Positions 21,936 through 35,017 of a stretch of DNA of 64,000 nt are shown here, in pieces; the stretch's first letter is position 1; every line of letters starts with the position of its first letter. The notes beneath the pieces were generated by a model, which saw nothing but the letters and a program-made list of their open reading frames with translations, did not search any database and was not told where the DNA came from. Source of the stretch: an uncultured Alphaproteobacteria bacterium (lineage in GTDB: Bacteria; Pseudomonadota; Alphaproteobacteria; HIMB59; GCA-002718135); the NCBI GenBank assembly GCA_902623585.1, contig CACNUO010000001.1:72314-136313 (forward strand), read 5' to 3'. The translations under genes were made by a program, and so were the position numbers.

Positions 21936-22762
21936 TGAAGCTAACACTTCTTGGAACCGGATGCCCCTCAGTTGATTATAAAAGGTGTGGTGCTTCAAAC
22001 CTTGTAATAACAAAAAAAACTAAAATTTTAATCGATTGTGGTTCTGGAGTAACGCAAAGATTAAATCAAAGTAAAAACTCTTCAGCTGATATTGACGCTT
22101 TACTACTTACCCATTTACATTCCGATCATGTTATAGATTTGTATCAACTCATCATTTCTTCTTGGCACTCTGATAGAGATTCAGTATGGAAGATATATGG
22201 ACCAAAAGGAACAAAGAAATTTGTTGATAAAATATTTTCAGCCTGGAAAATTGAACGTGAATTAAGAATTTCTTATGAAAAAAGAAAATCAATAAATGCT
22301 CTTAAATATAAAGTTTATGAATTTAAAAAAAATGGCTCAATAAAAATAAATGATATAAAAATTAAATATTTTGAAGTTGATCATAAACCAGTTACATATG
22401 CATATGGTTTTTCATTTTTTAATAATAGTAAGAAATTAACAATTAGTGGAGATACAAGACCGTGTGAGAGTTTAATGCAAAATGCACAGAACTCAGATGT
22501 TTTACTGCATGAAGTTTTTATTGAATATGAAATGAATAAAACGTCAAAACTTAGAACTAAAAAAACATTACATAATGTTAAAGAGTATCACACCTCAAGT
22601 AATCTTGTGGGTAAAGTAGCTAAATTATCAAACTGTAAAAAACTTGTATTAACACATTTTGTTCCAACAAGATTTAATGTTTCAAGATTAAAGAAAATTG
22701 TAAAAAAAGATTTTGGTAAAGATCCTATAATTGGAGAAGATTTATTAACAATCAATATCTAG
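21935..22762 (+). CDS. MBL-fold metallo-hydrolase (RNase Z/BN-like)
   Basis: 275 aa with the HxHxDH motif (THLHSDHV). The start overlaps the rpoD stop (ATAATGA). Confidence 0.75.
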   Translation: MKLTLLGTGCPSVDYKRCGASNLVITKKTKILIDCGSGVTQRLNQSKNSSADIDALLLTHLHSDHVIDLYQLIISSWHSDRDSVWKIYGPKGTKKFVDKIFSAWKIERELRISYEKRKSINALKYKVYEFKKNGSIKINDIKIKYFEVDHKPVTYAYGFSFFNNSKKLTISGDTRPCESLMQNAQNSDVLLHEVFIEYEMNKTSKLRTKKTLHNVKEYHTSSNLVGKVAKLSNCKKLVLTHFVPTRFNVSRLKKIVKKDFGKDPIIGEDLLTINI

Positions 22763-23586
22763 CCAACTTTATTTAAAAATTTTTCAAACTCATCATCTTT
22801 TATTTTAACTATATTCGATGGAGTTGGAAATTTTTTAGTGTTTACGTCTTTAACAAAATTTTTAAGTCCTTCTATTGTATCATTTAATAGCTTCTCATAG
22901 GATTTATTTGTATCCTTAAATACTTTTGCGTGACGAGGCACTCTATCAGTATTAGTGCCTATAACATCTTGAATAAATAAAAACTCAACATCACATTTGG
23001 GACCACTTCCCATAGACAATGTTAATAAATTTACTTTTTTTGTAATAATTTCTGCAACTCTATCTGGAACACATTCTACTTCAAGACCAATTGCACCTGC
23101 TTGATCGTATGCCAAAGCATCTTGATAAACTTTGTAGGCAGAAATAGCATCTTTTCCTACTGCTTTGAAACCACCAGTCCATGTACTTTTATAAGGTATT
23201 AAGCCTATATGACTGACGGCTGGCAATCCTTCATTTCGAAGAGCTTCTATATATTTTGGACTATTACCGCAATAAACTGCATCAGCACCATTATCCCTTG
23301 CAATAAGAGCAGCATCAATTGCTTTATCTGGAGAAGACAATTGACCAAGGCCATAAATCATAAATGTATTTGGTGCTGCATCACGAATATCTTTAATATG
23401 CGCATCCCTAAACCATCTATTTGTTGGCACACCAGTTCTTAATGTATCTTTTTTAAATGAAACAATCTGGATATCTATTCCAGCTTGTTCAGCTGCATAC
23501 GCTTCTAAAGCATTAGTCACATAAAGTTCTGTTAATTTAACTTTTCCTTTTTTGTCAAATAAATCTTTAACTGTAAGTTTAGACAT
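22759..23586 (-). CDS. Divergent PanB-like protein (ketopantoate hydroxymethyltransferase / ICL-PEPM superfamily)
   Basis: 275 aa. The C-terminal two thirds are collinear with PanB (SHIGLIP...GGFKAVGK...AGAIGLEVECVP...SMGSGP...HAKVF). The canonical N-terminal GDSLGM metal-binding motif is not recognisable (reads IVSFKKDTL). Confidence 0.55.
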   Translation of the reverse strand: MSKLTVKDLFDKKGKVKLTELYVTNALEAYAAEQAGIDIQIVSFKKDTLRTGVPTNRWFRDAHIKDIRDAAPNTFMIYGLGQLSSPDKAIDAALIARDNGADAVYCGNSPKYIEALRNEGLPAVSHIGLIPYKSTWTGGFKAVGKDAISAYKVYQDALAYDQAGAIGLEVECVPDRVAEIITKKVNLLTLSMGSGPKCDVEFLFIQDVIGTNTDRVPRHAKVFKDTNKSYEKLLNDTIEGLKNFVKDVNTKKFPTPSNIVKIKDDEFEKFLNKVG

Positions 23587-24947
23587 TAATGATATTTGGG
23601 TAAGTAATTACCGTGAGATTCAATTAACTTATCAACCATAGAATATATTTCATCAATGGACAAATTTGCTCCAGTTAGTGGATCTAGCATCGCTGCGTGA
23701 TAAATATGCTCTTTTTTATTTGTTAATGCAGCTTCAGCAGTCAAAATTTGAACATTTATATTTGTTCTCATTAAAGCTGCTAAATGTTCTGGTAAGCGAC
23801 CAGTTTTTTGAGGTTGATTACCTTTTGAATTAATTAAGCAAGGAACTTCAACACAACAATTTGATGGTAAATTATCAATATATCCATCATTCATCACATT
23901 ACCATTAATTGTTACTTCATTGTTATTTGTTACGGCATCCATTATGTATGATGCATATTCTTTTCCTCTTTTTAGAGGTTGATTATGTATGGGTGTCATA
24001 TCTTTTTCCAAGTCATCCCAAAGCTTGATATTATTTTCACATCTATCAATGTATTCTTCTATGGGAATTTTATATTGATCAATTAAATCTTGTCTATTCT
24101 GCTTTATAAACCATGGAACGTATTCAGCAAAATGTTCGCTAGACTCTGTAACAAAATAACCAAATCGTCTTAAAATTTCGTATCTTACTTTTTCATGCAG
24201 GACTTTATCTGATTCACTATCTTTACCTACACTTCTAGTTGATGTTATTTTATCACTGACAATATCATCAGCTAATTTTTTTAATTTTGGATAAAGATCC
24301 TCTCCACCATTGCCATTCTTTTTTGTAAACTTTTTATAGAAAGCCATGTGATTAATTCCAGCACAGAGATAATCAATATCCTCAATTTTTTCATTTAAAT
24401 CTCTAGCAAGCATTTCTGCAGTTCCTTGTACAGAATGACAAAGTCCTATAGATTTAATTCCAGGGCAAGCATTATTTATTGCTATCATGTTTGAACACAT
24501 TGGGTTTACATATTGTAACCATAAAGAATTTGGACAAAGATCCATTATATCTTTACCAATATCTACTAAAACTGGAATTGTTCTTAGACCTCTCATAATT
24601 CCACCAATACCAAGGGTATCAGCTATTGTCTGTTTTAACCCAAATTGATTTGGAATATCAAAATCGATTACTGTTGATGGTTTGTAACCGCCAACTTGGA
24701 TAGTTGACTGCACAAAATCTGAACCAGCCAAGGCTTCTTTTCTATTAGTGTATGATTTTATATTAGGAGATGCATTTAACTTTTTTGCGATTACATCTAA
24801 TAATTCATGTGATATTTTCAATCTTTTTTCATCAATATCTACAAGTGCAATATCCATTTTTTTAAAATCATCAATGAACATTAAATCTGTAAAAATATTT
24901 TTGGTAAATACTGCGCTACCAGCACCAATGATTGTGAGTTTAGTCAA
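23586..24947 (-). CDS. Glycoside hydrolase family 4, MelA-like NAD+/Mn2+-dependent alpha-galactosidase/alpha-glucosidase
   Basis: 453 aa. It has an N-terminal Rossmann motif IIGAGSAVFTKN and QTIADTLGIGGIMRGLRTIP. GLCHSVQGTAEMLARDLN and CAGINHMAFY are almost identical to E. coli MelA motifs. Confidence 0.85.
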   Translation of the reverse strand: MTKLTIIGAGSAVFTKNIFTDLMFIDDFKKMDIALVDIDEKRLKISHELLDVIAKKLNASPNIKSYTNRKEALAGSDFVQSTIQVGGYKPSTVIDFDIPNQFGLKQTIADTLGIGGIMRGLRTIPVLVDIGKDIMDLCPNSLWLQYVNPMCSNMIAINNACPGIKSIGLCHSVQGTAEMLARDLNEKIEDIDYLCAGINHMAFYKKFTKKNGNGGEDLYPKLKKLADDIVSDKITSTRSVGKDSESDKVLHEKVRYEILRRFGYFVTESSEHFAEYVPWFIKQNRQDLIDQYKIPIEEYIDRCENNIKLWDDLEKDMTPIHNQPLKRGKEYASYIMDAVTNNNEVTINGNVMNDGYIDNLPSNCCVEVPCLINSKGNQPQKTGRLPEHLAALMRTNINVQILTAEAALTNKKEHIYHAAMLDPLTGANLSIDEIYSMVDKLIESHGNYLPKYH

Positions 24948-25722
24948 TTTGATACTCCATAATTGAATTATGATTTGCTACTTTTAACTGGTTATAAGAA
25001 GCATGTCCAATTTCTTTATAAGGATTATTGGATTTAGTATTAAAGCACACTATTAATGTCCTTCTAGAATTTTGTGATTTATTTGCATCAGAAGAGTGCA
25101 ATAGATTTGCATGAAAGAATAATGCATCTCCTGGTTCTGCTTCAATATAAACAGACTCATGTCTTTTTTCTAATTCTCTTATTCTTTCATTATCTGCCGT
25201 TTGTTCAGGTGTGTCTGATCGTTCATGGCTAATTCTTCCAACACGATGAGAACCCTTTAATACTTTAAGGCAACCATTTTCTTTATTTGCTTTATCTAAC
25301 ATTATAAAACATGATGCCATATCTGGATAAAGACAAGCATTGTGATACCAATAACCATAATCTTGATGCCAATCAAATCCACCATCACCTGGATTTTTCC
25401 AAATAATTTTAGAATGATAATGATAAACTTCATCATTTAAGAATATTTCCATTGGTTTGACTATTCTTTCATTAGTAGAGAATTTTCCAAATAAATCTTC
25501 TGAAGGATGATTCCACATTGTCATTGTTAATTTTCCAGTTGAAGTATTAGTCTCTCTTGCACTTTCTTCTTTATCTTTTCTAATGGCTATATATCGATTT
25601 AATTTATTGATTTCTTCATTAGAAAAGAGTTTTTTCTTTAAGACAAAGCCATTTGAGATGAATTCCTTTATGTCACTCATATAAATAAACTGTAATTTCT
25701 TTGATAAATTAAATATTGTCAA
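24940..25722 (-). CDS. Phytanoyl-CoA dioxygenase (PhyH) family Fe(II)/2OG oxygenase, canonical HxD
   Basis: It carries WHQDYGYW (HxD), LDKANKENGCLKVLKGSH and a distal His in FFHANLLHSSDAN. The probable true start is ATG 25680 (MSDIKEF...); the track start 25722 is TTG. It overlaps the GH4 start by 8 nt. Confidence 0.8.
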   Translation of the reverse strand: MTIFNLSKKLQFIYMSDIKEFISNGFVLKKKLFSNEEINKLNRYIAIRKDKEESARETNTSTGKLTMTMWNHPSEDLFGKFSTNERIVKPMEIFLNDEVYHYHSKIIWKNPGDGGFDWHQDYGYWYHNACLYPDMASCFIMLDKANKENGCLKVLKGSHRVGRISHERSDTPEQTADNERIRELEKRHESVYIEAEPGDALFFHANLLHSSDANKSQNSRRTLIVCFNTKSNNPYKEIGHASYNQLKVANHNSIMEYQID

Positions 25723-25752
25723 TAAATATTAGGGAGTATAGGATATATAAAT

Positions 25753-27237
25753 ATGAAAGTTAGTTTTATTGGAGCTGGGAGTATAGGATTTACTCAAACA
25801 TTAGTAAGAGATCTGCTAAAGGTTCCTGAATTTCATGATACAAATTTTTTTTTTCACGATATTTCTGAAAAAAATTTAGATTTTGTTTCAAAACTTATCC
25901 AAAAAGATATTGATGCTAATAATCTTCCTGCAACTATTGAACAATCAACCGATAGAAAAAAAGCATTAGAGGGAGCAAAATATATAATTAATTGTACACG
26001 CATTGGAGGACTAGAAGCATTTGAGCACGATATTAATATTCCTCTTCAATATGGTGTAGATCAGTGTGTAGGGGACACCATTTGCGCTGGAGGAATTCTA
26101 TATGGTCAAAGAAATATTCCCCAAACCTTAAATTTTTGTAAAGATATAAAATCTTATTCGGATTCAAATGCTTTGTTTTTGAATTATTCAAATCCAATGG
26201 CCATGAACACTTGGGCAGCAATATCAGAAGCAAAAGTAAATACAGTTGGGCTATGTCACGGTGTTCAAGGTGGCGCAAAACTAATCTCTAAAGCATTAGG
26301 ATCTGAAAACTCAAAAGATCTTGAATATATGTGTAGCGGAATTAATCATATGACCTGGTACATAGATCTAAAATTCAAAGGAAAAAAAGTATCAAAAGAA
26401 GAACTTATAGATGCATTGGAAAGACATCCAGAAATTTCTAAACAAGAAAAAGTAAGAATTGATATTTTAAAAAGATTTGGTTTATTTTCTACTGAAAGTA
26501 ATGGCCATTTAAGTGAGTATCTTCCATGGTATAGAAAAAGAGTTGAGGATATTCCTAAATGGATAGATTTGTCAAATTGGATACATGGCGAAACGGGAGG
26601 ATATTTAAGAGTTACATCAGAGAAAAGAAATTGGTTTGAAGAAGACTTTGAAAAATTTTTAAGTGAGTCGGGTATCGATTTAAATAATCATAAAAGATCT
26701 TCTGAGCATGGTAGTTATATAATTGAGTCAATTGAAACAAATAGACCTTATCGTGGTCATTTTAATGTAGTTAATAATGGTACTATAACAAATTTACCAG
26801 ATGACTGTGTTATTGAAAGTACTGGAACAGTTGATAAAGATGGAATTAAAATGATTAAAGGTGTTGAGCTTCCAATGGCCTGTGCATCACTCTGTAGAAC
26901 ATCGATAGATGTTCAGAGAATGGCAGTCAAAGCTGCAATAGACGGAGATTTAAATTTATTAAAATTAGCAGTTTTGCAAGATCCATTAGTTAGTGCAGTT
27001 TGTTCACCTGATGAAGTTTGGTCTATGGTAGATGAAATGATTGTAGCTCAATCTAAATGGCTTCCTCAATATCAAAACGAAATTGAACTAGCTCTAGAGA
27101 GAATTAAAAATTCTAATGTAAAAAAGAAAAATTTTAAAGGTGCTGCAAGAATGAAAACTAGATCTCCTGAAGAACTAAAAAATGATGAAGAATCTTCTTT
27201 ACTTGTGGAAGCACAGGCATTCGAATTTGATGCTTAA
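25753..27237 (+). CDS. Glycoside hydrolase family 4 paralogue (AglA/MelA-like) with a ~40-aa charged C-terminal extension
   Basis: 494 aa with FIGAGSIGFTQ, VGDTICAGGILYGQRNIP, GLCHGVQGGAKL and SGINHMTWY. Confidence 0.82.
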   Translation: MKVSFIGAGSIGFTQTLVRDLLKVPEFHDTNFFFHDISEKNLDFVSKLIQKDIDANNLPATIEQSTDRKKALEGAKYIINCTRIGGLEAFEHDINIPLQYGVDQCVGDTICAGGILYGQRNIPQTLNFCKDIKSYSDSNALFLNYSNPMAMNTWAAISEAKVNTVGLCHGVQGGAKLISKALGSENSKDLEYMCSGINHMTWYIDLKFKGKKVSKEELIDALERHPEISKQEKVRIDILKRFGLFSTESNGHLSEYLPWYRKRVEDIPKWIDLSNWIHGETGGYLRVTSEKRNWFEEDFEKFLSESGIDLNNHKRSSEHGSYIIESIETNRPYRGHFNVVNNGTITNLPDDCVIESTGTVDKDGIKMIKGVELPMACASLCRTSIDVQRMAVKAAIDGDLNLLKLAVLQDPLVSAVCSPDEVWSMVDEMIVAQSKWLPQYQNEIELALERIKNSNVKKKNFKGAARMKTRSPEELKNDEESSLLVEAQAFEFDA

Positions 27238-27240
27238 GCA

Positions 27241-28770
27241 ATGAAAGAAATAAAAAATGTCGTAATTTTAGGTGGAGGAACTGCTGGATGGCTAGCTGCA
27301 TATATATTAAGTGACTTTTTTTATTCTAACAAACTTAATACAAATGTTAAAATAATAGAGTCTTCTAAAATACCAACAATTGGTGTTGGAGAGGGGACTA
27401 CCAGCATATTTTATGAATTTTTAAAAAAATATAATTTAGATGAATCTGATTTTTTGAAAGAAACAAAAGCTACATTAAAATTTGGAATAGTACATAAAGA
27501 CTGGAAAGAATTAGGATATACTTATTATGGACCTATAGATGATCCGCAATTAATTGCTCCAAAAAATAAACCAGAAAATTTTGAATATTTAAAAGCATAT
27601 GCTGTCGCTGCTGGAAGACCAGTTTCTGAAATTCATTTGCATACAATGCTTATGCAAAATAAAAAAGTACCTTATACTTTTAAAAATAATAATTTAGAAC
27701 TAATAAGCCCATTTTATTATGCATATCATTTTGATAATTCTCAAGTAGCAAGCTATTTAAATAAAAGATCTAAAAATATTGAGATTATTGATGATATTTA
27801 CACATCTTCAACACAAAATGTAGATGGAACAATTAGATCTCTATGTTTTGAAAGTGGTTTGGAATTGGATGTTGATTTAGTTATTGATTGTAGTGGTTTT
27901 AAAAAATTGATTATTGGAGATGTGTTCAAAACCAAATGGATCTCTTATCAAGATAATCTTCCTGTAAATAGAGCGATGCCATTTTTTTTAGATATAAAAG
28001 AAGAAAACTACATTAATTATACATTAGCCTGGGCCCAAAAGTATGGATGGATGTGGCAAATTCCTACACAAGAAAGAATTGGTGCTGGTTATGTTTATTG
28101 TGATCAATTTATCTCACCTGATCAAGCACAAGAAGAAATAGAAAAAGTTCTTGGACACAAAATTGAACCAAGACGAGACATTAAGTTTAATAGTGGTAGG
28201 TTAGAAAAATATTGGGTTAAAAATTGTTTAGCTATCGGTTTATCATCTGGTTTCCTTGAACCCTTAGAAGCTACTTCTATTCATAGTACTTTGATTCAAA
28301 TCATTTTATTTGCAACTGAATATCTTAAGAAAGAAATGGACTTTAATAATGAAGAATTAATCTCTAATTTTAATAATCGAATTGGACGACAATTTGATGA
28401 TTTCAAAACCTTTTTAAATATGCACTATGTTTCCAAAAGAAGAGATTCAAAATTTTGGCAATACGTTGCAGATGAATGTATAAGCGAAGATACAAAAAAA
28501 TTTATTTCTTTATGGCAAGATGAACTTCCAAGTCTTGATCATTTTGATGATTATCTCTCTGGCCTTCCTCATGTACAATCACAGTTATACTACCCAGTTG
28601 TAGATGGTCTTGGTCTATTAAGTAAGGAATCCGCGAGAGAACAAATGAGCAAATATGATTTACGATCAACATCAAGAAAATATTACAATGATTTTTCTGA
28701 GAAATTTAACGAAATAATCAAGGATTCCCTTACTCACAGTCAATATATTAATCTTTCAGTGAATTCTTAG
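27241..28770 (+). CDS. Flavin-dependent halogenase family protein (tryptophan-halogenase-like)
   Basis: 509 aa with FAD motifs GGGTAGW and GVGEGT, the GWMWQIP (WxWxIP) signature, a Lys in KATLKF that aligns by eye with PrnA K79, and FLEPLEATS that aligns with PrnA E346. Confidence 0.78.
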   Translation: MKEIKNVVILGGGTAGWLAAYILSDFFYSNKLNTNVKIIESSKIPTIGVGEGTTSIFYEFLKKYNLDESDFLKETKATLKFGIVHKDWKELGYTYYGPIDDPQLIAPKNKPENFEYLKAYAVAAGRPVSEIHLHTMLMQNKKVPYTFKNNNLELISPFYYAYHFDNSQVASYLNKRSKNIEIIDDIYTSSTQNVDGTIRSLCFESGLELDVDLVIDCSGFKKLIIGDVFKTKWISYQDNLPVNRAMPFFLDIKEENYINYTLAWAQKYGWMWQIPTQERIGAGYVYCDQFISPDQAQEEIEKVLGHKIEPRRDIKFNSGRLEKYWVKNCLAIGLSSGFLEPLEATSIHSTLIQIILFATEYLKKEMDFNNEELISNFNNRIGRQFDDFKTFLNMHYVSKRRDSKFWQYVADECISEDTKKFISLWQDELPSLDHFDDYLSGLPHVQSQLYYPVVDGLGLLSKESAREQMSKYDLRSTSRKYYNDFSEKFNEIIKDSLTHSQYINLSVNS

Positions 28771-28843
28771 ATTAACTGAATAACATTTATAATTGTTATT
28801 GATTTTGAGTAAAAAAAACATTTTACTTTTAGTAAAATTATTC

Positions 28844-28853
28844 AAAGGGAGGA
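28844..28853 (+). promoter_or_regulatory. Strong Shine-Dalgarno block AAAGGGAGGA, 4 nt upstream of the SBP start
   Basis: The identical 10-mer precedes all three ABC substrate-binding genes in the window. Confidence 0.6.
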
Positions 28854-28857
28854 TAAA

Positions 28858-30885
28858 ATGGGTATTGAAACCAAATTTACTTTCAAGAGTAAAGCAGCAA
28901 GTTTACTTGTAGGTGTTAGCATGGTTGCTATGACTTCTGGTGCTAGTGCTCTTGAAACTCTACCACCTGATAAAAGTATGTCAGGTATAGAAGTTGAATT
29001 AGTTGGAAGAGATGATTTATATTCTTATAAAAGTTGTGATAGTTATAATGAAGCTCCTTTAACTGCAGCATATGTTGAAGCTGGAAAGCTACCACCAGTA
29101 GCTGAGAGACTTCCAAAAACACCAATGATGATGTCAAAAGCTCAAATGGTTGATGGAATTGGTGATTATGGCGGAACATTTCGTCATGTTATTGGAGGAA
29201 GACCTGAAGGTTGGAACTGGATGGCTGGACAACATCAAGGTTGGGGTGGCATTAGCATGCAGTTAATGCAATCATTAACAAGACTTGGTCCACTATGGCA
29301 AGTTAAACCTGAAGAAGCTTTACCTCTTCCAAACCTAGCAACTGACTGGGAGTTTAATAGCGATCGTACTACTTTAACTATGAATTTAGTTGAAGGTGTA
29401 AAATGGTCTGATGGAGATCCATTTGATACTGAAGATATTGATTTTTGGTGGAACGATAATGTTCAAAATGCAAATGTAAACTCGAGGCTTCCAAAGGATG
29501 CTCTTGGTGCAGGAACGACAGTTGATATTTTAGGACCATATTCGTTTAGGTTTAATTTTGACTCTCCAAAAGGTAATGCTGTTCTATCACAGCTTGCGCA
29601 TATGGGAGGTGCTCCTGGGCCTTCTCACATTTTAAAACCACATCACCCAGATTATAATAGTGATGCAACTTACGATACATATACTATGGCTTTACCACCT
29701 GATGAAGTGCCTATAGCAACACTTGGAGCTTATGTTCCAGTTGCTCATAAAATTGACGAACTGGTGGTGATGAAAAGAAATCCTTACTATTGGAAAGTTG
29801 ATGAAGAATGTAATCAACTTCCATATTACCATGAAACGATTTATAAATTAACCACATGGGATGATAGAACTACGCAAGCTCTAGCAGGAACTGGTGATTA
29901 TTCTAATATGGAAAATCCTGGTAACTACGTTGAAGCCTTAAAGCAAAATAAAGATCCTAACTCGCCTGTTAGATCAGTATTTGGTTCTAGATCTTTGACA
30001 TGGAAATTATATGTAAATCTTTCCTCTGAATTTGGAGCTCAAGATGATTATGATAGAGAGTTAAGAAAACTTTTCAGAAACTTGGAGTTTAGAAAAGCAC
30101 TTTCTCACGCAATGGATAGAGACACTATGGGTCAATCTGTTGCGAGAGGTCCTTTCTTCCATCCTCATGCTGGAGGATTTTCTGCAGGATCTCCTTTTCA
30201 TCGCTTTGAGGATTCTATTTATTATGGATACAATGTTGATGGTGCCAATTCAATCTTAGATGGTTTAGGTCTTATTGATAGTGATGGAAACGGTATTAGA
30301 AATTTTCCTAATGGAGGAGAAGATATAGCGTTGGACATCCTTTTCAGTAATGAAAGATCCACTGATATTAAAATTGGGGATAGTATAGTTCCAATGTTTG
30401 AAGCGGTAGGATTAAAACCTATATTAAAACCTTCAAACGATACGGCAGCAATTACTGATGCGGGAAATTGGAATTTATATATTAATAGACACAATTGGCT
30501 TGTTGTAACGAAAAACATGGCTGATGAGTTACCAATAACTCCTGAAAATCCTGTTCAACATAAAAGTAATGAAGGTGATTTACTTCCATTTGAAAAAACT
30601 TTAGCTAATTTAGGTAACGACATTCTTGCTACTAATGATTTGAAAGTTGTTGCAGAAAAAGCTTACGAAATTCAAAAGGTAAGTACTGAAAATGTATATT
30701 CAATAGGATTAATACAAACACCTGCTGCACTTTTAATTAACAAAAGGATAAAGAATAATCATCCAGGCACTCCAGTATATATGTACGAATGGGGTGAAGA
30801 TGCAATTTTTAGGGAAAGACTTTATACCCCTAAAGCTGATCAAATAGATGAGTTCTTACCTGGTGTTTTGGCTGAATATAAATAA
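28858..30885 (+). CDS. ABC transporter substrate-binding protein, family 5 (Opp/Dpp/AgpA-type), large 675-aa form with signal peptide
   Basis: It has a signal peptide (...MTSGASA/LE), SBP_bac_5-like length and order, and sits next to DppB/C/DF-type genes. Confidence 0.85.
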   Translation: MGIETKFTFKSKAASLLVGVSMVAMTSGASALETLPPDKSMSGIEVELVGRDDLYSYKSCDSYNEAPLTAAYVEAGKLPPVAERLPKTPMMMSKAQMVDGIGDYGGTFRHVIGGRPEGWNWMAGQHQGWGGISMQLMQSLTRLGPLWQVKPEEALPLPNLATDWEFNSDRTTLTMNLVEGVKWSDGDPFDTEDIDFWWNDNVQNANVNSRLPKDALGAGTTVDILGPYSFRFNFDSPKGNAVLSQLAHMGGAPGPSHILKPHHPDYNSDATYDTYTMALPPDEVPIATLGAYVPVAHKIDELVVMKRNPYYWKVDEECNQLPYYHETIYKLTTWDDRTTQALAGTGDYSNMENPGNYVEALKQNKDPNSPVRSVFGSRSLTWKLYVNLSSEFGAQDDYDRELRKLFRNLEFRKALSHAMDRDTMGQSVARGPFFHPHAGGFSAGSPFHRFEDSIYYGYNVDGANSILDGLGLIDSDGNGIRNFPNGGEDIALDILFSNERSTDIKIGDSIVPMFEAVGLKPILKPSNDTAAITDAGNWNLYINRHNWLVVTKNMADELPITPENPVQHKSNEGDLLPFEKTLANLGNDILATNDLKVVAEKAYEIQKVSTENVYSIGLIQTPAALLINKRIKNNHPGTPVYMYEWGEDAIFRERLYTPKADQIDEFLPGVLAEYK

Positions 30886-30900: not shown

Positions 30901-30927
30901 TGGCCCATTTTTCAATGGGCCAGTTTT
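30901..30927 (+). terminator. GC-cored hairpin after the SBP gene (TGGCCCATT-TTTC-AATGGGCCA, then GTTTT): intra-operon attenuator or mRNA stabiliser
   Basis: A perfect 9-bp stem 16 nt after the SBP stop and 8 nt before the permease start. Confidence 0.5.
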
Positions 30928-30934: not shown

Positions 30935-31960
30935 ATGGCTTTTTTATTTTTTTTATTAAAACGAATTATTGCAACTATTCCTCTGTTAATTGCTATAACT
31001 CTTGTTGCATTTCTTCTTGTTCAGGCAATGCCCGGTGATTATGCAACTCAATGGAAAGCTCAAACAATGTCAATGGGAGGTGTCAGTGAAGAGGATGCTG
31101 AGGCTCAAGCTGAAGCTTTAAGAGTTAGATTAGGTTTAGATAAACCACTTTACATTCAATATTTTAATTGGGTAAAAAATATCACTCTTTATTGGGATTT
31201 AGGAGAATCATTTATTCAACAGAGATCAGTTAATGAAGCAATAGGAGATAGAGTTCCACGAACATTATTATTAGCTTTTATATGTTACTTTAATGCCGTA
31301 ACTATTGGAATATTAGCTGGCGTCTATGCTGCTACACATCAATATCAACTAGGCGATCAACTTGCTACGGTCTTTACATTTTTAGCTTTTTCAATTCCTA
31401 AGTTTATTGTAGCGTTAGTTATATTATATTTCTGGGCTATTAAATTTCATTCACCATATTATGGTTCAATATTTTCACAAGAATATGTTTTACAAGAGGG
31501 ATGGTGGAGTCTTGCAAAAACATGGGATTTCTTGCTCCATACCTGGCCAATTATTGCAGTTGGAAGTTTTGTAGGAGCAGGATATCAAATGAGAATGATG
31601 CGAGGTAATTTATTAGATGTTTTAAAAATGCAATTTATAGAAACCGCAAGAGCTAAAGGGTTAAAGGAAAGTAAGATTATATGGAAACATGGTGTTCCAA
31701 ACGCTTTACATCCAATAATCATGAATCAAGGCAGAAGCGTTGGCTATTTAATTGAAGGAGAGATTGAAGTAGCAATTGTATTAGCAATACCAACTATTGG
31801 ACCATTGATTTTATCATCCGTTACCACAATGGATATATATGTTGCATCTTCAATATTTTTGATTTTGTCTCTCGTATTAGTAATTGGTAATTTTATTGCA
31901 GATATAATATTGGCATTACTTGATCCTCGTATTAGAGATATGTCCGGAGGCGAGGCTTAA
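30935..31960 (+). CDS. ABC transporter permease (DppB/OppB-type)
   Basis: 341 aa, multi-TM, with an EAA-like loop FIETARAKGLKESKIIWKHGVPNAL. Confidence 0.87.
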   Translation: MAFLFFLLKRIIATIPLLIAITLVAFLLVQAMPGDYATQWKAQTMSMGGVSEEDAEAQAEALRVRLGLDKPLYIQYFNWVKNITLYWDLGESFIQQRSVNEAIGDRVPRTLLLAFICYFNAVTIGILAGVYAATHQYQLGDQLATVFTFLAFSIPKFIVALVILYFWAIKFHSPYYGSIFSQEYVLQEGWWSLAKTWDFLLHTWPIIAVGSFVGAGYQMRMMRGNLLDVLKMQFIETARAKGLKESKIIWKHGVPNALHPIIMNQGRSVGYLIEGEIEVAIVLAIPTIGPLILSSVTTMDIYVASSIFLILSLVLVIGNFIADIILALLDPRIRDMSGGEA

Positions 31961-33087
31961 TGACTTCCAAAAATAAAAATGGATCTCTTAATGCTGAGGC
32001 ACAAAAATTTTCAAATATAAATTCCCATTGGCACCTTTCATATTTAAGATTAAAAAAAAATCGTTATGGAATGTTTGGTTTATATGGTGTGTTGTTTATT
32101 TTTTTTATTGCTATTTTTGCAGAATTTTTATCACCTCATAGTTATAAGAAGACTGTTCAGGATGAATTATATAATCCACCACAATTAATTCGATTTATAG
32201 ATTCTGAAGGTAATTTTCATTTAAGACCATTTGTATTTAAACTTATTGAAGAAATGGATATGGAAACTTTTGAATTCTCATACTCTAATTCAGATGAAAT
32301 GATACCTATTTATTTTTTTATTCAGGGTGATGAATATTCTATTTTTGGTTTTAAGACTAAGCTTCGGTTATTTGGCAATAACGAAGGTAATATTCACTTA
32401 TTGGGTACTGATAATATGGGTAGAGATATTCTTTCAAGAATGTTTGTCGGAACACAAATTACTATGCTCTTTGCTTTACTTGCAGTTTCAGCATCATTGG
32501 TTATTGGATTAATGGTAGGTATAAGCTCAGGATATTTTGGAGGAACGTATGATTTAATAGCGCAAAGAGTGACAGAATTTGCATTATCATTTCCATCCTA
32601 TCCATTATATTTTGCGTTGGTAGCTCTCTTGCCAAAAAGAGCCGATGAGACGACAGTGTTTGTACTATTTGCCGGAATAATTGTTTTATTAAATTGGGCA
32701 TCAATTGCTAGAGAGATTAGAGGTAAAACTTTTTTAGTAAGAAACCTAGAATTTGTTAGAGCAGCAAGAGCTTTAGGTGCATCTAGATCAAGAATTATGA
32801 TTCAACATATATTTCCAAATACTTTATCTCACGTAATTGTCTGGACATCATTTTGTATTCCTCTAATTATTTTAGTTGAAACTTTTTTAAGTTTCATCGG
32901 AGTAGGTGTTCAGCATCCTATGGTTTCATGGGGAGTAATGTTAAATCAGGCTTTAGATATACAGAGCTTTGCATATGCTCCCTGGATGATTGCTCCAGTT
33001 GGAATGATTATATTAACTGTTTTAGCTTTTAATGCTTTTGGAGATGGAATAAGGGACGCGGTAGATCCATATGCAGTCACAAAATAA
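31960..33087 (+). CDS. ABC transporter permease (DppC/OppC-type)
   Basis: 375 aa with EAA-like loop FVRAARALGASRSRIMIQHIFPN. The start overlaps the upstream stop. Confidence 0.87.
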   Translation: MTSKNKNGSLNAEAQKFSNINSHWHLSYLRLKKNRYGMFGLYGVLFIFFIAIFAEFLSPHSYKKTVQDELYNPPQLIRFIDSEGNFHLRPFVFKLIEEMDMETFEFSYSNSDEMIPIYFFIQGDEYSIFGFKTKLRLFGNNEGNIHLLGTDNMGRDILSRMFVGTQITMLFALLAVSASLVIGLMVGISSGYFGGTYDLIAQRVTEFALSFPSYPLYFALVALLPKRADETTVFVLFAGIIVLLNWASIAREIRGKTFLVRNLEFVRAARALGASRSRIMIQHIFPNTLSHVIVWTSFCIPLIILVETFLSFIGVGVQHPMVSWGVMLNQALDIQSFAYAPWMIAPVGMIILTVLAFNAFGDGIRDAVDPYAVTK

Positions 33088-34699
33088 TCAGAAATTATTA
33101 GATCTGAAAAATGCTGAAGTAAAATTCAGTGTAGAGGGAGGAATTGTCAATGCAGTAAATGATATATCTTTTGACATAATGAAAGGTGAAACCCTTGCTG
33201 TTGTTGGTGAGTCAGGTTCAGGAAAATCAGTCACTGCTAGAACTATAATGAAAATGCTACCTAAGAATTCATCAATTGGGTCAAATTTCAAGATTGAGTT
33301 TAAAGATGTAGATATTACAAATTTAACTCAGGAACAGATGAGACAAATCAGAGGTGATACTATTAGTATGATATTTCAAGAGCCTCTCACAAGTTTAAAT
33401 CCTCTCCATAGGATTGGAAGTCAATTGATAGAGGTATTACGAGAACACAATAAAATTGATAAAATTACTGCAAAAGAAAGAGCCCTTGAATTATTAAAAG
33501 AAGTACAAATTCCTCAGCCAGAAGAAAGATTAAATCAATATCCGCATCAGTTATCAGGGGGTCAAAGACAAAGAGTTATGATTGCAATGGCTATCGCAAA
33601 TAGACCTGATTTATTAATAGCTGATGAACCAACAACTGCTTTAGATGTTACAATACAATCACAAATATTAAAATTACTAAAGGATCTACAAAAAAAATAT
33701 GGAATGGCAATTATGCTTATTACACATGATTTAACTGTTGTAAGAAAAACTAGTGATAGAATATGTGTAATGCGATATGGAAAAATAGTTGAGAGAGGTA
33801 TTACAGAAGATGTATTTAATAATCCTCAACATGAATATACAAAACATTTAATTAATTCTGAACCTAGTGGTGAACCTGATCCTTATGATGCAAGCAATGA
33901 AGATTATATAATACAAGGACAGCAATGTACTGTTAAATTTACATTGAAAAAAGGGAATTTTTTTAATCAAAAGAAAACAGAATTAATTGCAGTAAATAAT
34001 GTTGATATTAAAGCGCGTTATGGTGAAACCATAGGCATTGTTGGAGAAAGTGGATCAGGTAAAAGCACACTTGGAATGTCACTTATAAAACTACAAGATA
34101 TAAATTCTGGAAAAATATTTTTTAAAGATGAAGAAATACAAGATTATAATACTAAGCAATTAAAAGATTTAAGAGAACATATGCAGATTGTTTTTCAAGA
34201 TCCTTTTTCCTCTTTAAATCCTAGACATACAATAAAACAAATAATAGGCGAGGGATTAGAAATAAATAGAAAAGATTTATCAAAAGAAGAAAAAGATGAT
34301 TTAATAAAAAAAACACTAAATGAAGTAAATCTTGATGAAGCTGTCCTTCATCGTTTCCCTCATGAATTTTCAGGTGGCCAAAGGCAAAGAATTGCGATTG
34401 CTAGAGCTATAATTTTAAATCCAGAATTTATTTTACTTGATGAACCAACTTCTGCATTGGATTTATCTATTCAGGCACAAATTATTGATTTGTTGAGATC
34501 TTTAAGAAGAAATCACAATTTGTCATATATTTTCATAAGTCATAATTTGAAAGTAATTCGATCGCTGTGTCATTATACTTTGGTTATGAAAGATGGAAAA
34601 GTAATTGAAGAAGGAATTACTAAAAATGTACTCGATAATCCAGTAAACGACTATACCAAACAATTAGTTCAATCAGCTTTTGAGGTTATAGGTGAATAG
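33071..34699 (+). CDS. Fused double ABC ATPase (DppD-DppF type)
   Basis: 542 aa with two complete cassettes: Walker A GESGSGKS twice, signature LSGGQRQR / FSGGQRQR, and Walker B LLIADEPT / ILLDEPT. Confidence 0.92.
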   Translation: MQSQNNQKLLDLKNAEVKFSVEGGIVNAVNDISFDIMKGETLAVVGESGSGKSVTARTIMKMLPKNSSIGSNFKIEFKDVDITNLTQEQMRQIRGDTISMIFQEPLTSLNPLHRIGSQLIEVLREHNKIDKITAKERALELLKEVQIPQPEERLNQYPHQLSGGQRQRVMIAMAIANRPDLLIADEPTTALDVTIQSQILKLLKDLQKKYGMAIMLITHDLTVVRKTSDRICVMRYGKIVERGITEDVFNNPQHEYTKHLINSEPSGEPDPYDASNEDYIIQGQQCTVKFTLKKGNFFNQKKTELIAVNNVDIKARYGETIGIVGESGSGKSTLGMSLIKLQDINSGKIFFKDEEIQDYNTKQLKDLREHMQIVFQDPFSSLNPRHTIKQIIGEGLEINRKDLSKEEKDDLIKKTLNEVNLDEAVLHRFPHEFSGGQRQRIAIARAIILNPEFILLDEPTSALDLSIQAQIIDLLRSLRRNHNLSYIFISHNLKVIRSLCHYTLVMKDGKVIEEGITKNVLDNPVNDYTKQLVQSAFEVIGE

Positions 34700-34940: not shown

Positions 34941-35017
34941 GGGCTCTTAGCTCAGTTGGTTAGAGCGCCCCGCTCATAACGGGGTGGTCCGGGGTTCAAG
35001 TCCCTGAGGGCCCACCA
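34941..35017 (+). tRNA. tRNA with anticodon CAT (34975-34977): elongator Met or lysidine-modified Ile2; CCA encoded
   Basis: Hand-folded: acceptor GGGCTCT/AGGGCCC (one G-U), D arm GCTC-AGTTGGTTA-GAGC, anticodon arm CCCCG-CTCATAA-CGGGG, T arm CGGGG-TTCAAGT-CCCTG. Met and Ile2 cannot be separated by eye. Confidence 0.88.

What the first reader, a model, noticed from the sequence alone, without database searches (positions are those of the whole stretch)
27241..28770. Flavin-dependent halogenase homologue with all catalytic signatures retained, embedded in a sugar-uptake operon of a streamlined genome
The 509-aa protein keeps GGGTAGW and GVGEGT (FAD binding) and the WxWxIP signature (GWMWQIP). 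A Lys in ETKATLKF aligns by eye with the chloramine/HOCl-guiding Lys79 of PrnA/RebH. FLEPLEATS aligns with PrnA Glu346. It starts 3 nt after a GH4 glycosidase and precedes an ABC importer. Homologues annotated as tryptophan halogenase recur in polysaccharide-utilisation loci of other marine and plant-associated proteobacteria, and no function has been demonstrated for them. Retention of such a gene in a minimal genome argues for a real, selected activity, either halogenation or another flavin chemistry on a glycoside or aglycone.
Basis: partly seen in the sequence, partly recalled or inferred. Interest (0 to 1): 0.68.

Follow-up and report, generated by a model that had tools for sequence, protein, structure and literature searches.

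The report
Halogenase gene inside alpha-galactoside sugar operon
A SAR11-type marine bacterium carries an apparently intact flavin-dependent halogenase gene inside an operon for importing and splitting alpha-galactoside sugars; it belongs to an uncharacterised branch that always sits in this operon, has lost the usual indole-binding residues, and is closest to halogenase genes of marine phages.

Summary
ORF 27241-28770 encodes a 509-aa Trp_halogenase-family protein (Pfam 353 bits). It has GGGTAGW, GVGEGT, WMWQIP, K80 (matches BrvH K83) and E343 (matches PrnA E346). The AlphaFold model (pLDDT 95.7) matches halogenase crystal structures at TM 0.85-0.90.

The interpretation needs three corrections.
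- The "sugar operon" is specifically the Agp/Mel alpha-galactoside system: a MelB-type binding protein (E 1e-167 to PDB 6EPY), two GH4 alpha-galactosidases and an Opp-type ABC importer.
- The protein is not in the TonB-receptor/PUL-linked BrvH/Xcc4156 group. It belongs to a separate clade (at least 40% identity) in Pelagibacterales, Hyphomicrobiales and Rhodobacterales. In 25 of 27 loci this clade lies next to GH4 genes; none of 55 more distant loci does.
- Its nearest relatives outside the clade are halogenases of T4-like marine phages.

The indole-stacking HxF motif is replaced by an invariant GPIDD, so it is unlikely to be a tryptophan or indole halogenase. FDH-less operons with near-identical transport and GH4 genes exist, so the gene is an accessory. 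It is nevertheless under strong purifying selection (dN/dS 0.05).

I judge halide chemistry on a polar, non-indole substrate during alpha-galactoside use the most likely function. This is untested and the substrate is unknown.

The parts
27241..28770 (+). Flavin-dependent halogenase homologue (FDH), 509 aa. It belongs to the clade linked to GH4 / alpha-galactoside operons.
   Evidence: Pfam PF04820 353 bits. PDB phmmer E to 7.8e-64. PHROG 2928 367 bits. AF2 pLDDT 95.7. Foldseek TM 0.85-0.90 to Thal/PrnA/PyrH/AbeH. dN/dS 0.05.
27271..27291 (+). GGGTAGW, the GxGxxG FAD-binding motif (G11-W17).
   Evidence: Invariant in alignment A1 and across all groups.
27382..27405 (+). GVGEGT followed by T54-S55. 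This is the second flavin motif plus the 'Trp1/gate' position. In other halogenases that position is I/V/F followed by P/S.
   Evidence: Gate residues are defined in PMC11840605 and the Trp1 motif in PMC8269204.
27478..27480 (+). K80, the catalytic lysine (equivalent to PrnA/RebH K79 and BrvH K83).
   Evidence: Alignments. BrvH primer sequence and the inactive K83A mutant. 100% conserved in the clade.
27529..27543 (+). GPIDD (G97-D101), a clade-invariant replacement of the indole-stacking HxF 'Trp2' motif (PrnA 101-105).
   Evidence: Column profile: H is 97-100% and F 96-100% in BrvH-like and Trp halogenases; G, I, D and D are each 100% in the clade. Motif definition in PMC8269204.
28048..28065 (+). 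WMWQIP, the WxWxIP motif (W270-P275).
28258..28278 (+). EPLEATS. E343 is equivalent to PrnA E346. The following Ser is Ala here (A344). T345-S346 occupy the halide-site backbone positions.
   Evidence: Ungapped offset to PrnA 317-407. Column profile. Halide contacts Thr357/Gly358 in AbeH, PMC11840605.
25753..27237 (+). GH4 glycosidase B (494 aa), alpha-galactosidase type, immediately upstream of the FDH with a 3-nt spacer.
   Evidence: Pfam GH4 N and C domains. NCBIfam NF011657 553 bits, cut-off 486. 56-64% identical across orders.
23586..24947 (-). GH4 glycosidase A (453 aa), MelA-like alpha-galactosidase, on the divergent arm.
   Evidence: NF011657 595 bits. Present in 25 of 27 clade loci.
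24940..25722 (-). PhyH-family Fe/2OG dioxygenase with an HxD triad (WHQDY). It occurs only in the SAR11 versions of the locus.
   Evidence: Pfam PF05721 114 bits. Sequence. Best PDB matches are free-amino-acid hydroxylases. Absent from Devosia and Rhodobacterales loci.
22759..23586 (-). PanB-like (ketopantoate hydroxymethyltransferase family) paralogue, the last gene of the minus-strand arm.
   Evidence: Pfam PF02548 131 bits, but below the NCBIfam PanB cut-offs. 90-97% identical in the other SAR11 loci.
28858..30885 (+). Periplasmic binding protein, MelB/AgpA alpha-galactoside type (675 aa).
   Evidence: PDB 6EPY 'periplasmic alpha-galactoside-binding protein', 562 bits, E 1.3e-167, residues 24-659. 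Strong Shine-Dalgarno sequence GGGAGG upstream.
30901..30922 (.). GC-rich hairpin (9 bp stem) between the binding-protein and permease genes.
   Evidence: Its function is inferred only.
30935..33087 (+). Two Opp/Dpp-type permease genes (30935-31960 and 31960-33087).
   Evidence: Pfam BPD_transp_1 and OppC_N.
33071..34699 (+). Fused double ABC ATPase.
   Evidence: Pfam ABC_tran x2. YejF-like, 642 bits.
34941..35017 (+). tRNA-Met (CAT). It marks the right-hand boundary of the variable module.
   Evidence: ARAGORN and Rfam. It is 100% identical in L003/L005. In those loci the DNA to the right is 93-94% identical to the window and the DNA to the left only about 76%.

Best explanation
The gene encodes a catalytically intact, cytoplasmic, two-component flavin-dependent halogenase from a previously uncharacterised clade. 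It is co-expressed, probably by translational coupling, with an Agp/Mel-type alpha-galactoside uptake and hydrolysis system.

Proposed mechanism. Steps 1-3 are inferred from family chemistry; none was assayed here.
1. Free FADH2 from a general reductase binds at the GxGxxG/GVGE site and reacts with O2 to give flavin hydroperoxide.
2. A halide held near T345-S346 and the WxWxIP tryptophans is oxidised to hypohalous acid. In seawater this is most plausibly bromide or chloride.
3. The hypohalous acid is passed to K80/E343 and delivered to an electron-rich carbon of the substrate.

What is shown here is that the substrate pocket differs from every characterised relative. The indole-stacking HxF motif is replaced by an invariant GPIDD. 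F is replaced by H85, the gate I/V/F-P/S by T54-S/A, and L by T276. This points to a polar, non-indole substrate.

The gene is an optional seventh member of an otherwise complete operon and never occurs elsewhere in this clade. Its substrate or its usefulness must therefore be tied to growth on alpha-galactosides. Candidates are an imported galactoside, its aglycone or a hydrolysis product.

The clade shares ancestry with the halogenase genes of T4-like marine phages.
For: Family and catalytic residues:
- Pfam 353 bits; PDB hits E to 1e-64.
- K80 and E343 equivalences.
- All motifs are invariant in 26 clade members.
- AF2 pLDDT 95.7; TM 0.85-0.90 to halogenase crystal structures.

Operon link:
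- 25 of 27 clade loci have adjacent GH4 genes and 22 of 27 have the MelB-type binding protein, against 0 of 55 distant loci.
- Gene order differs among SAR11, Devosia and Rhodobacterales.
- On a Sulfitobacter plasmid the seven genes overlap by 4 nt and are flanked by IS elements.
- In the window there is a 3-nt spacer and no Shine-Dalgarno sequence.
- The binding protein matches Agrobacterium MelB at E 1e-167. Both GH4 proteins pass the NCBIfam alpha-galactosidase cut-off.

Selection: dN/dS 0.05, the same as the transporter genes.

Pocket remodelling: column profile, read against the published Trp1, Trp2 and Trp4 motif definitions (PMC8269204).

No other recurrent partner gene was found apart from an AraC regulator.

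Phage affinity.
Against: - No activity data exist for any member of this clade or of the phage sister group.
- No flavin reductase is encoded in any of the loci.
- FDH-less operons have binding proteins and GH4 enzymes that are as similar or more similar. For example, the Sulfitobacter FDH+ binding protein is 74% identical to that of FDH-less Qingshengfaniella, against 62-67% to other FDH+ loci. The halogenase is therefore not needed for alpha-galactoside use as such and does not mark a distinct transported substrate.
- Classical alpha-galactosides (melibiose, raffinose, galactinol) have no electron-rich aromatic carbon for electrophilic halogenation.
- S347 of PrnA is Ala in 88% of the clade. 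The consequence is unknown.
Confidence: 0.5

Rival explanations
1. The scaffold has been recruited for halide-independent flavin chemistry. It would act as an oxidase or monooxygenase on a sugar or sugar-derived intermediate of alpha-galactoside catabolism, with K80/E343 serving other roles.
For: - The setting is catabolic, not a biosynthetic gene cluster.
- The polar pocket (H85, D100, D101, T54, T276) looks better suited to polyols than to arenes.
- S347 of PrnA is replaced by Ala.
- Classical alpha-galactosides offer no site for electrophilic halogenation.
Against: - WxWxIP is invariant. This motif has been suggested to keep the enzyme from acting as a monooxygenase (PMC5945002).
- K80 and E343 are also invariant. 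Both are needed only for hypohalous-acid chemistry in characterised members.
- No member of this Pfam family with these residues is known, to my knowledge, to be a plain monooxygenase.
Confidence: 0.17
2. It is a phage-derived passenger gene that became lodged in a mobile sugar-utilisation cassette. It is maintained for a role unrelated to the sugar, such as a defensive or signalling halometabolite, or interference with phage. Its operon position merely provides expression.
For: - The nearest relatives outside the clade are phage genes. The grouping has 181 of 200 bootstrap support.
- The cassette is flanked by IS elements on a plasmid.
- In SAR11 the module sits next to tRNA-Met and is far more divergent between lineages than its flank.
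- FDH-less operons work without it.
Against: - The gene is found only in this operon across three orders, despite rearranged gene order.
- It is translationally coupled to its neighbours.
- Purifying selection equals that of the transporter genes.
- Its GC content matches the host genome, 0.29.
- None of 79 viral loci carries GH4 or ABC genes, so the operon association arose and persisted in cells.
Confidence: 0.2
3. It is a member of the TonB-receptor/PUL-associated BrvH/Xcc4156-type indole brominases.
For: It has the same Pfam family and a similar length. The halide-site residues T-S resemble the BrvH-like EPLESTS.
Against: - Identity is only 30-34%.
- The clade is monophyletic in 100 of 100 bootstraps, apart from BrvH-like sequences.
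- A bipartition places it with phage enzymes and away from BrvH-like plus Trp halogenases in 181 of 200 bootstraps.
- No TonB receptor occurs in any clade locus, against 41 of 56 for the others.
- The HxF motif, kept in 96-97% of BrvH-like sequences, is lost.
Confidence: 0.03
4. It is a tryptophan 7-halogenase, as database annotations of close relatives say.
For: Source names for relatives include 'tryptophan 7-halogenase [Pelagibacteraceae bacterium]'. The best PDB sequence hits are the Trp halogenases Tar14, AbeH and Th-Hal. A GLP-containing stretch (YLSGLPHVQ) resembles the group-B Trp4 motif YYHGLPPYS.
Against: - The Trp2 HxF stacking motif is replaced by GPI in 100% of the clade.
- The Trp1 gate residues differ (T-S/A).
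- No NCBIfam halogenase equivalog is matched beyond the N-terminal flavin motif.
- There is no biosynthetic cluster around it.
Confidence: 0.03

Closest known systems
Tryptophan halogenases PrnA, RebH, Thal, PyrH, AbeH, Tar14, Th-Hal (two-component flavin-dependent halogenases, Pfam PF04820)
   Same: Fold (TM 0.85-0.90); GxGxxG, GVGE and WxWxIP motifs; catalytic Lys and Glu at equivalent positions. A GLP-containing C-terminal stretch is reminiscent of the group-B Trp4 motif.
   Different: Only 26-29% identity over the Foldseek structural alignment and 33-34% over conserved alignment columns. The indole-stacking HxF is replaced by GPIDD, and the gate residues are T-S/A. The gene lies in a catabolic sugar operon rather than a natural-product cluster.
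BrvH, Xcc4156 and Pseudoalteromonas 9LUQ-type 'indole' halogenases, the group usually found beside TonB-dependent receptors
   Same: Not tryptophan-specific, native substrate unknown, found outside biosynthetic clusters in marine and plant-associated Proteobacteria. T-S after the catalytic Glu.
   Different: A separate clade at 30-34% identity. Those genes lie within 3 kb of a TonB receptor in 41 of 56 loci, against 0 of 29 here. They keep HxF and lack the Trp4-like stretch. BrvH has shown in vitro bromination; nothing has been shown for this clade.
Halogenase genes of T4-like marine phages (Pelagibacter phage HTVC008M gp079, Prochlorococcus phage P-SSM2 PSSM2_217, S-PM2, and many IMG/VR contigs; PHROG 2928)
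   Same: They are the closest relatives outside the clade: 35-42% identity over the full length. Many share the T54/H85/[GAS]-P-[IL]-D signature. They group with the clade in 181 of 200 bootstraps. They are also uncharacterised.
   Different: Phage copies sit among structural genes and small 2OG-Fe(II) oxygenases, often as 2-4 tandem paralogues. None lies next to GH4 or ABC genes. The cultured-phage versions (HTVC008M, P-SSM2) still have F-H-x-F/V at the Trp2 position.
VirX1, the characterised cyanophage iodinase (PDB 6QGM)
   Same: A viral or virus-related flavin-dependent halogenase with Lys and WxWxIP.
   Different: It is a distant lineage. It scores 155 bits against the window protein, and 132-153 bits against the phage relatives P-SSM2 and P0272. 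All of these score lower than the Trp halogenases do.
Agp/Mel alpha-galactoside utilisation operon of Rhizobiaceae (Agrobacterium MelB binding protein, PDB 6EPY; rhizobial two-GH4 plus ABC loci)
   Same: Same gene set: a MelB-type binding protein (562 bits), two Opp-type permeases, a fused ATPase and two GH4 alpha-galactosidases.
   Different: The rhizobial and Qingshengfaniella operons have no halogenase. Only 1 of 248 plasmids carrying the binding protein has the clade FDH. The SAR11 version lacks the AraC regulator and adds PhyH and PanB-like genes.

Membership tests
Flavin-dependent halogenase, tryptophan-halogenase superfamily (Pfam PF04820, 'variant A') | Profile match above the curated threshold over the full domain | tested here: met
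   353.3 bits against a cut-off of 21, residues 6-433.
Flavin-dependent halogenase, tryptophan-halogenase superfamily (Pfam PF04820, 'variant A') | GxGxxG FAD-binding motif and GxGEAT-type second motif | tested here: met
   GGGTAGW at residues 11-17 and GVGEGT at 48-53. Invariant in the clade.
Flavin-dependent halogenase, tryptophan-halogenase superfamily (Pfam PF04820, 'variant A') | WxWxIP motif | tested here: met
   W270-M-W272-Q-I-P275; 100% conserved in the clade.
Flavin-dependent halogenase, tryptophan-halogenase superfamily (Pfam PF04820, 'variant A') | Catalytic Lys (PrnA K79) and Glu (PrnA E346) at equivalent positions | tested here: met
   K80 aligns with the ATxK lysine of Tar14, AbeH, Th-Hal, 9LUQ and BrvH K83. 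E343 corresponds to PrnA 346 by an ungapped offset.
Flavin-dependent halogenase, tryptophan-halogenase superfamily (Pfam PF04820, 'variant A') | Halogenase fold (flavin box plus helical pyramid) | tested here: met
   AF2 pLDDT 95.7, pTM 0.93. Foldseek probability 1.0, TM 0.85-0.90 to Thal, PrnA, PyrH and AbeH.
Flavin-dependent halogenase, tryptophan-halogenase superfamily (Pfam PF04820, 'variant A') | A tunnel of about 10 A between flavin and Lys; halide- and FADH2-dependent halogenation | not testable with these tools
Tryptophan / indole-specific halogenases | Trp2 'HxF' motif (PrnA 101-105) that stacks on the indole ring | tested here: not met
   G97-P98-I99-D100-D101, 100% in the clade. H is 97-100% and F 96-100% in BrvH-like and Trp halogenases. 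Motif definition in PMC8269204.
Tryptophan / indole-specific halogenases | Trp1 gate residues (I/V/F followed by P/S after GVGEAT) | tested here: not met
   T54 (100%) followed by A/S/G in the clade. Definitions.
Tryptophan / indole-specific halogenases | Trp4 motif binding the amino-acid moiety | tested here: inconclusive
   YLSGLPHVQ aligns with the group-B YYHGLPPYS, but only G-L-P is shared.
TonB-receptor/PUL-associated BrvH-Xcc4156 group | Phylogenetic placement with BrvH, Xcc4156 and 9LUQ | tested here: not met
   It forms a separate clade in 100 of 100 bootstraps. It groups with phage enzymes and against BrvH-like plus Trp halogenases in 181 of 200.
TonB-receptor/PUL-associated BrvH-Xcc4156 group | Adjacent TonB-dependent receptor gene | tested here: not met
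   0 of 29 clade loci against 41 of 56 distant loci. None in the window.
Agp/Mel alpha-galactoside uptake operon (applies to the surrounding genes) | MelB/AgpA-type cluster-C binding protein | tested here: met
   PDB 6EPY, E 1.3e-167, 562 bits, full length.
Agp/Mel alpha-galactoside uptake operon (applies to the surrounding genes) | GH4 alpha-galactosidase(s) in the operon | tested here: met
   NF011657 scores 595 and 553 bits against a cut-off of 486. The same two-GH4 layout occurs in R. etli p42e.
Agp/Mel alpha-galactoside uptake operon (applies to the surrounding genes) | Actual ligand (melibiose, raffinose, galactinol) and AraC-type regulator | tested here: inconclusive
   Ligand residues were not compared. 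The AraC gene is present in 12 of 22 related loci but absent from the window.
VirX1-type viral halogenases | Close sequence relationship to VirX1 (6QGM) | tested here: not met
   155 bits. It ranks 27th of 30 PDB hits.

The most novel reading that the evidence does not exclude
This would be the first halogenase dedicated to nutrient catabolism rather than natural-product biosynthesis. Its pocket would bind a galactoside, or a GH4-generated enol or aglycone, and halogenate it, possibly cryptically, during alpha-galactoside use. The same chemistry would be carried by T4-like cyanophages and pelagiphages. In that case SAR11-type bacteria and their viruses would be an unrecognised, abundant source of organohalogens, or of halide-dependent sugar chemistry, in the surface ocean.
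Probability: 0.15. Interest if true: 0.85.

Novelty: new variant of a known kind. Interest (0 to 1): 0.62.

Why it matters
'Tryptophan halogenase' genes outside biosynthetic clusters are very common in marine bacteria and in cyanophage and pelagiphage genomes. Nobody knows what they do in vivo.

This locus gives that puzzle a concrete handle.
- It defines an orthologous clade with a fixed genomic partner, the alpha-galactoside uptake and GH4 hydrolysis operon.
- FDH-plus and FDH-less versions of that operon exist, which makes a natural comparison.
- Culturable carriers are available (Sulfitobacter mediterraneus, Devosia rhodophyticola, Pelagibacterium limicola).
- The enzyme has a remodelled, polar substrate pocket.
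- It is evolutionarily linked to phage genes.

If the enzyme halogenates, it would connect sugar scavenging by some of the most abundant ocean bacteria to natural organohalogen formation. If it does not, it would show a new chemistry on the halogenase scaffold. Either result would also re-annotate thousands of metagenomic 'tryptophan 7-halogenase' entries.

Tried and rejected
1. Second halogenase in the locus. I asked whether the neighbouring PhyH gene is an Fe/2OG halogenase, because it gives a weak hit to the 'chlorinating enzyme' model. Rejected: it has an HxD triad (WHQDY), and its best PDB matches are amino-acid hydroxylases.
2. Conserved partner gene. I looked for a flavin reductase, dehalogenase or exporter in 22 FDH+ loci. 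None was found; only an AraC regulator (12 loci) and an SDR (6 loci) recur. My ORF calling in high-GC loci was crude, so those counts are minima.
3. Distinct transporter or GH4 subtype. I tested whether FDH+ operons have their own subtype. They do not: the FDH-less Qingshengfaniella proteins are the closest to the FDH+ Sulfitobacter proteins.
4. Promoter and terminator scan of 22.5-35.2 kb. Uninformative in this AT-rich DNA: 66 promoter-like sites against 67 expected.
5. Literature searches. I combined halogenase with polysaccharide utilisation, TonB, SAR11/Pelagibacter, and alpha-galactosidase/raffinose/melibiose/GH4. No paper among those listed links a halogenase to an alpha-galactoside operon. 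The Agrobacterium MelB paper could not be fetched. No paper for the 9LUQ/9LU2/9LTB structures was among the 10 of 20 hits listed, and none of those listed contained the PDB codes.
6. First AF2 model. With 16 sequences it was poor at the key motifs (pLDDT 78), so I replaced it with an 81-sequence model.
7. Exact bipartitions with all 50%-cluster representatives. These gave only about 10% bootstrap support, probably because of fragmentary or rogue sequences. The reduced taxon set supports only the deeper grouping with phage enzymes (181 of 200). The order within that group is unresolved; the GH4 clade alone was recovered in 112 of 200.
8. VirX1 kinship. Rejected on score.
Full report
**1. The observation.** The ORF at 27241..28770 (+) starts with ATG and encodes 509 aa.
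- GGGTAGW at 27271-27291
- GVGEGT at 27382-27399
- K80 at 27478-27480
- WMWQIP at 28048-28065
- EPLEATS at 28258-28278

The match to the Trp_halogenase family is overwhelming. Pfam PF04820 scores 353 bits, E 2.8e-105, over residues 6-433. Thirty PDB halogenase sequences match at E 1e-40 to 8e-64. The by-eye residue equivalences are correct. A fragment starting at D313 aligns without gaps to PrnA 317-407, so E343 corresponds to PrnA E346. It also aligns to RebH chain residue 377; assuming that chain carries a 20-residue tag (from memory, not checked here), this is E357. K80 lies in TKATLKFGIVH, the counterpart of BrvH TQATCKLGIRF, where K83A kills activity (PMC5945002). A first AlphaFold model from 16 sequences was weak (pLDDT 78). 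A second model from 81 sequences reached pLDDT 95.7 and pTM 0.93. It superposes on Thal, PrnA, PyrH, AbeH, RebH, 9LUQ and Xcc4156 with TM 0.85-0.90. I could not inspect coordinates, so the tunnel and the Lys-flavin distance remain unmeasured.

**2. The surroundings.** The upstream gene (25753-27237) is a GH4 glycosidase that ends three bases before the halogenase ATG. There is no Shine-Dalgarno sequence in between, which suggests translational coupling. Downstream lie:
- a 675-aa family-5 binding protein with a strong GGGAGG ribosome site
- two Opp-type permeases
- a fused double ATPase

The binding protein matches the Agrobacterium alpha-galactoside-binding protein MelB (PDB 6EPY) over its full length, at 562 bits and E 1.3e-167. 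Both GH4 proteins, this one and a second at 23586-24947 on the other strand, exceed the NCBIfam alpha-galactosidase cut-off: 553 and 595 bits against 486. The 'sugar-uptake operon' is therefore specifically the Agp/Mel alpha-galactoside system. The same set (AraC, GH4, binding protein, two permeases, ATPase, GH4) occurs without any halogenase on Rhizobium etli p42e and on a Qingshengfaniella plasmid. Of 248 plasmids with this binding protein, only one carries the clade halogenase.

The window is SAR11-like. GC is 0.29. The locus is 94% identical at the nucleotide level to marine single-cell genomes AG-891-E17 and AG-913-M07. Relatives are named Pelagibacteraceae.

The module 22759-34699 lies between rpoD plus a metallo-beta-lactamase-fold gene and a tRNA-Met gene at 34941-35017. 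In two other SAR11-type genomes (L003, L005) the DNA to the right of that tRNA is 93-94% identical to the window. The GH4 region to the left is only about 76% identical, the halogenase is 65% identical at the protein level, and the gene order differs, with the halogenase after the ABC genes. The module is thus part of the flexible genome, not the core.

**3. A distinct clade tied to this operon.** Homologues fall into two sharply separated sets.
- Sequences at 40% identity or more come from Pelagibacterales, from Hyphomicrobiales (Devosia, Pelagibacterium, Kaistia, Bauldia, Aestuariivirga) and from Rhodobacterales (Sulfitobacter, Tabrizicola, Marivivens, Histidinibacterium, Rhodobacter, Cypionkella).
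- In 25 of 27 such loci a GH4 gene is adjacent. The two exceptions are contigs shorter than 5 kb. In 22 of 27 the MelB-type binding protein and its ABC partners lie within the fetched stretch.
- None of 55 loci with a halogenase at 36% identity or less has these genes.

Gene order differs between lineages:
- SAR11 window: GH4B-FDH-ABC
- SAR11 L003: GH4B-ABC-FDH
- Rhodobacterales: ABC-GH4A-FDH-GH4B
- Devosia: GH4B-FDH facing GH4A-ABC

The association is therefore maintained by function rather than by inherited synteny. On a Sulfitobacter mediterraneus plasmid the seven genes overlap by 4 nt and are bracketed by IS6 and IS3 transposases. Clustering all neighbours in 22 loci found no further recurrent partner except an AraC regulator (12 loci) and an SDR (6 loci). 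No flavin reductase, dehalogenase or exporter recurs. Against the two 94%-identical genomes, the halogenase has dN/dS 0.05, indistinguishable from the binding-protein, permease C, ATPase and GH4 genes.

**4. Not the PUL/TonB group.** The distant cellular homologues come from Gammaproteobacteria, Caulobacterales and Sphingomonadales, often as 2-4 tandem copies. They have a TonB-dependent receptor within 3 kb in 41 of 56 loci. The clade has none in 29 loci. A representative, Brevundimonas alba, scores 455, 440 and 399 bits against 9LUQ, Xcc4156 and BrvH. For it, in vitro bromination of indoles is published, although native substrates are unknown. In a neighbour-joining tree the GH4-linked clade is monophyletic in 100 of 100 bootstraps. 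No sequence outside it exceeds 34% identity to the window protein.

**5. Phage relatives.** Scanning 1.84 billion cluster representatives gave 1358 hits at E 1e-30 or better. Only about 4-8 representatives lie at 42% identity or more, followed by a long tier at 35-40%. Many in that tier share the clade's unusual residues. I looked up six members of that tier.
- Five of them (P0272, P0290, P0298, P0308 and P0127) are on phage-like contigs. The evidence is T4 gp13, gp15 and rIIB, Phage_tail_APC, tandem halogenase copies, and TauD or 2OG oxygenases.
- The sixth (P0134) sits among radical-SAM and methyltransferase genes, and I could not assign it.

The annotated phage collection has 70 records with a homologue, mostly Synechococcus and Prochlorococcus myophages. 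It also includes Pelagibacter phage HTVC008M, where gp079 lies between a 2OG oxygenase and the large terminase gene. IMG/VR holds at least 576 matching stretches, the best at 35-42% identity over the full length. None has GH4 or ABC genes; 48 of 79 have a gp078-like oxygenase and 33 of 79 have 2-4 copies. The window protein scores 367 bits against PHROG 2928.

A reduced neighbour-joining analysis supports the grouping {GH4 clade + phage-context + cultured-phage enzymes} against {BrvH-like + Trp halogenases} in 181 of 200 bootstraps. The order inside that group is unresolved: the GH4 clade alone was recovered in 112 of 200, and exact bipartitions with all representatives in only about 10%. These phage enzymes are not VirX1-like (132-153 bits to 6QGM). 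The whole super-group therefore has no solved or characterised member.

Caveats on the trees: they are distance trees, and the six PDB sequences in them were copied from HMMER alignment output and are partial.

**6. Catalytic core kept, substrate pocket rebuilt.** A column-by-column comparison of 26 clade members, 94 other cellular homologues and 3 Trp halogenases shows two things.

The flavin motifs, K80, WxWxIP and EPLE are invariant everywhere.

Positions that published work assigns to substrate binding carry a different, clade-invariant set. The definitions used are Trp1 = PrnA 50-55, Trp2 = PrnA 101-105 (the 'HxF' motif that stacks on the indole) and Trp4 (PMC8269204), plus the 'gate' residues (PMC11840605). 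The changes are:
- HxF (H 97-100%, F 96-100% elsewhere) becomes G97-P-I99, followed by D100-D101, all at 100%.
- The gate I/V/F-P/S becomes T54-A/S.
- F five residues after the Lys becomes H85 (100%).
- L after WxWxIP becomes T276 (96%).
- Ser after the catalytic Glu becomes Ala (88%).
- H444, L449, P452 and D455 are fixed in the C-terminal region.
- A YLSGLPHVQ stretch faintly recalls the group-B Trp4 motif, which explains why Tar14, AbeH and Th-Hal top the PDB list.

I infer a polar, non-indole substrate. This is inference from sequence, not a docking result.

**7. How it most likely works.**

Shown:
- The family, fold and catalytic residues.
- The strict operon linkage and the purifying selection.
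- The remodelled pocket.

Inferred:
- FADH2 from a housekeeping reductase, together with O2 and a halide, gives enzyme-guided hypohalous acid at K80/E343.
- That species halogenates, or oxidises through a halogenated intermediate, a polar compound available when alpha-galactosides are being used.

Not explained:
- Classical alpha-galactosides lack an electron-rich carbon for this chemistry.
- FDH-less operons have transport and GH4 proteins as close as or closer than those of FDH+ operons to each other. For example, the binding protein is 74% and GH4-B 81% identical between FDH+ Sulfitobacter and FDH-less Qingshengfaniella.

The halogenase is therefore an add-on that does not define what is imported. 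I put about 0.5 on the halogenase-linked-to-galactoside-use reading, 0.17 on halide-independent flavin chemistry, and 0.2 on a phage-derived passenger with an unrelated role. The BrvH-type and tryptophan-halogenase readings are essentially excluded.

**8. Novelty and verdict.** I found no paper in the searchable library that connects a halogenase with an alpha-galactoside operon or with SAR11. The protein is a new variant of a known kind. It has a known scaffold and a presumably known chemistry. It differs in having an unreported obligate genomic partner, a rebuilt substrate site and an unexpected kinship with phage genes. It is worth experimental follow-up because culturable carriers and natural FDH-less controls exist.

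Noticed in passing
window 19776-21935 (stop codon at 20988-20990): The rpoD gene (sigma-70) is split by a single in-frame TAA (…GVKR*DFVSQ…). The two 94%-identical single-cell genomes have Asp or Glu at this codon and an uninterrupted gene. It may be a sequencing or assembly error, or a real nonsense mutation in an essential gene. The rpoD region is also only 82-83% identical to those genomes, against 94% for the locus overall.
   Followed up: partly
window 34941-35017, with L003 11576-11658 and L005 12440-12524: The tRNA-Met (CAT) gene is 100% identical between SAR11 lineages. It marks a sharp change in divergence: 93-94% nucleotide identity to its right and about 76% to its left, with different gene order. 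This looks like a recombination or island boundary.
   Followed up: partly
window 24940-25722 (-) and 38480-39307 (+): There are two PhyH-family Fe/2OG dioxygenases. The first sits between the two GH4 genes only in the SAR11 versions of the locus, has an HxD triad, and resembles free-amino-acid hydroxylases (PDB 7DT0, GriE 5NCH). Phage halogenase genes are also typically next to small 2OG oxygenases, but those did not match these two proteins by tblastn (0 of 79 viral loci).
   Followed up: partly
window 22759-23586 (-): A PanB-like protein scores below the NCBIfam PanB cut-offs and closes the minus-strand GH4-A/PhyH arm. It is 90-97% identical across SAR11 lineages, whose halogenases are as little as 65% identical. 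It is possibly an aldolase-type enzyme of sugar-acid metabolism rather than of pantothenate synthesis.
   Followed up: no
window 35029-51698: A second, larger carbohydrate cluster lies here. It has three GFO/IDH/MocA oxidoreductases, an aldo-keto reductase, a xylose-isomerase-like TIM barrel, a class II aldolase, an MFS transporter, a LacI regulator and two CUT1-type ABC systems, one with a fused 608-aa double permease. The gene mix resembles inositol or 3-keto-glycoside type pathways.
   Followed up: no
window 30901-30922: A 9-bp GC-rich hairpin (TGGCCCATT…AATGGGCCA) lies between the binding-protein gene and the first permease gene. It may raise the ratio of binding protein to permease.
   Followed up: no
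L084 (Sulfitobacter mediterraneus plasmid NZ_CP081110) 177-14568: The complete cassette (AraC, ABC, GH4, FDH, GH4) is bracketed by IS6 and IS3 transposase genes on a 136-kb plasmid. This suggests that the seven-gene module moves as a unit.
   Followed up: partly
L091 (Pelagibacter phage HTVC008M) 4421-7995; L089 5015-9533; L090 8001-13202: Phage halogenase genes sit inside structural or packaging modules. In HTVC008M the gene lies between the small and large terminase genes and overlaps a 2OG oxygenase. On large viral contigs they occur as three tandem paralogues. Their role in phages is unknown.
   Followed up: partly
L013, L015, L016, L024, L027: A subset of Rhodobacterales loci has the halogenase and GH4-A but no GH4-B in the fetched stretch. 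In most of them (L013, L015, L024, L027; L016 is the exception) the binding protein is noticeably closer to the SAR11 one (48-52% against 41-43%). This may be a second operon subtype.
   Followed up: no
window 59017-59360: RNase P RNA (bacterial class A, 307 bits). There is also a tRNA-Val at 5742-5816. Both are ordinary housekeeping RNAs.
   Followed up: no
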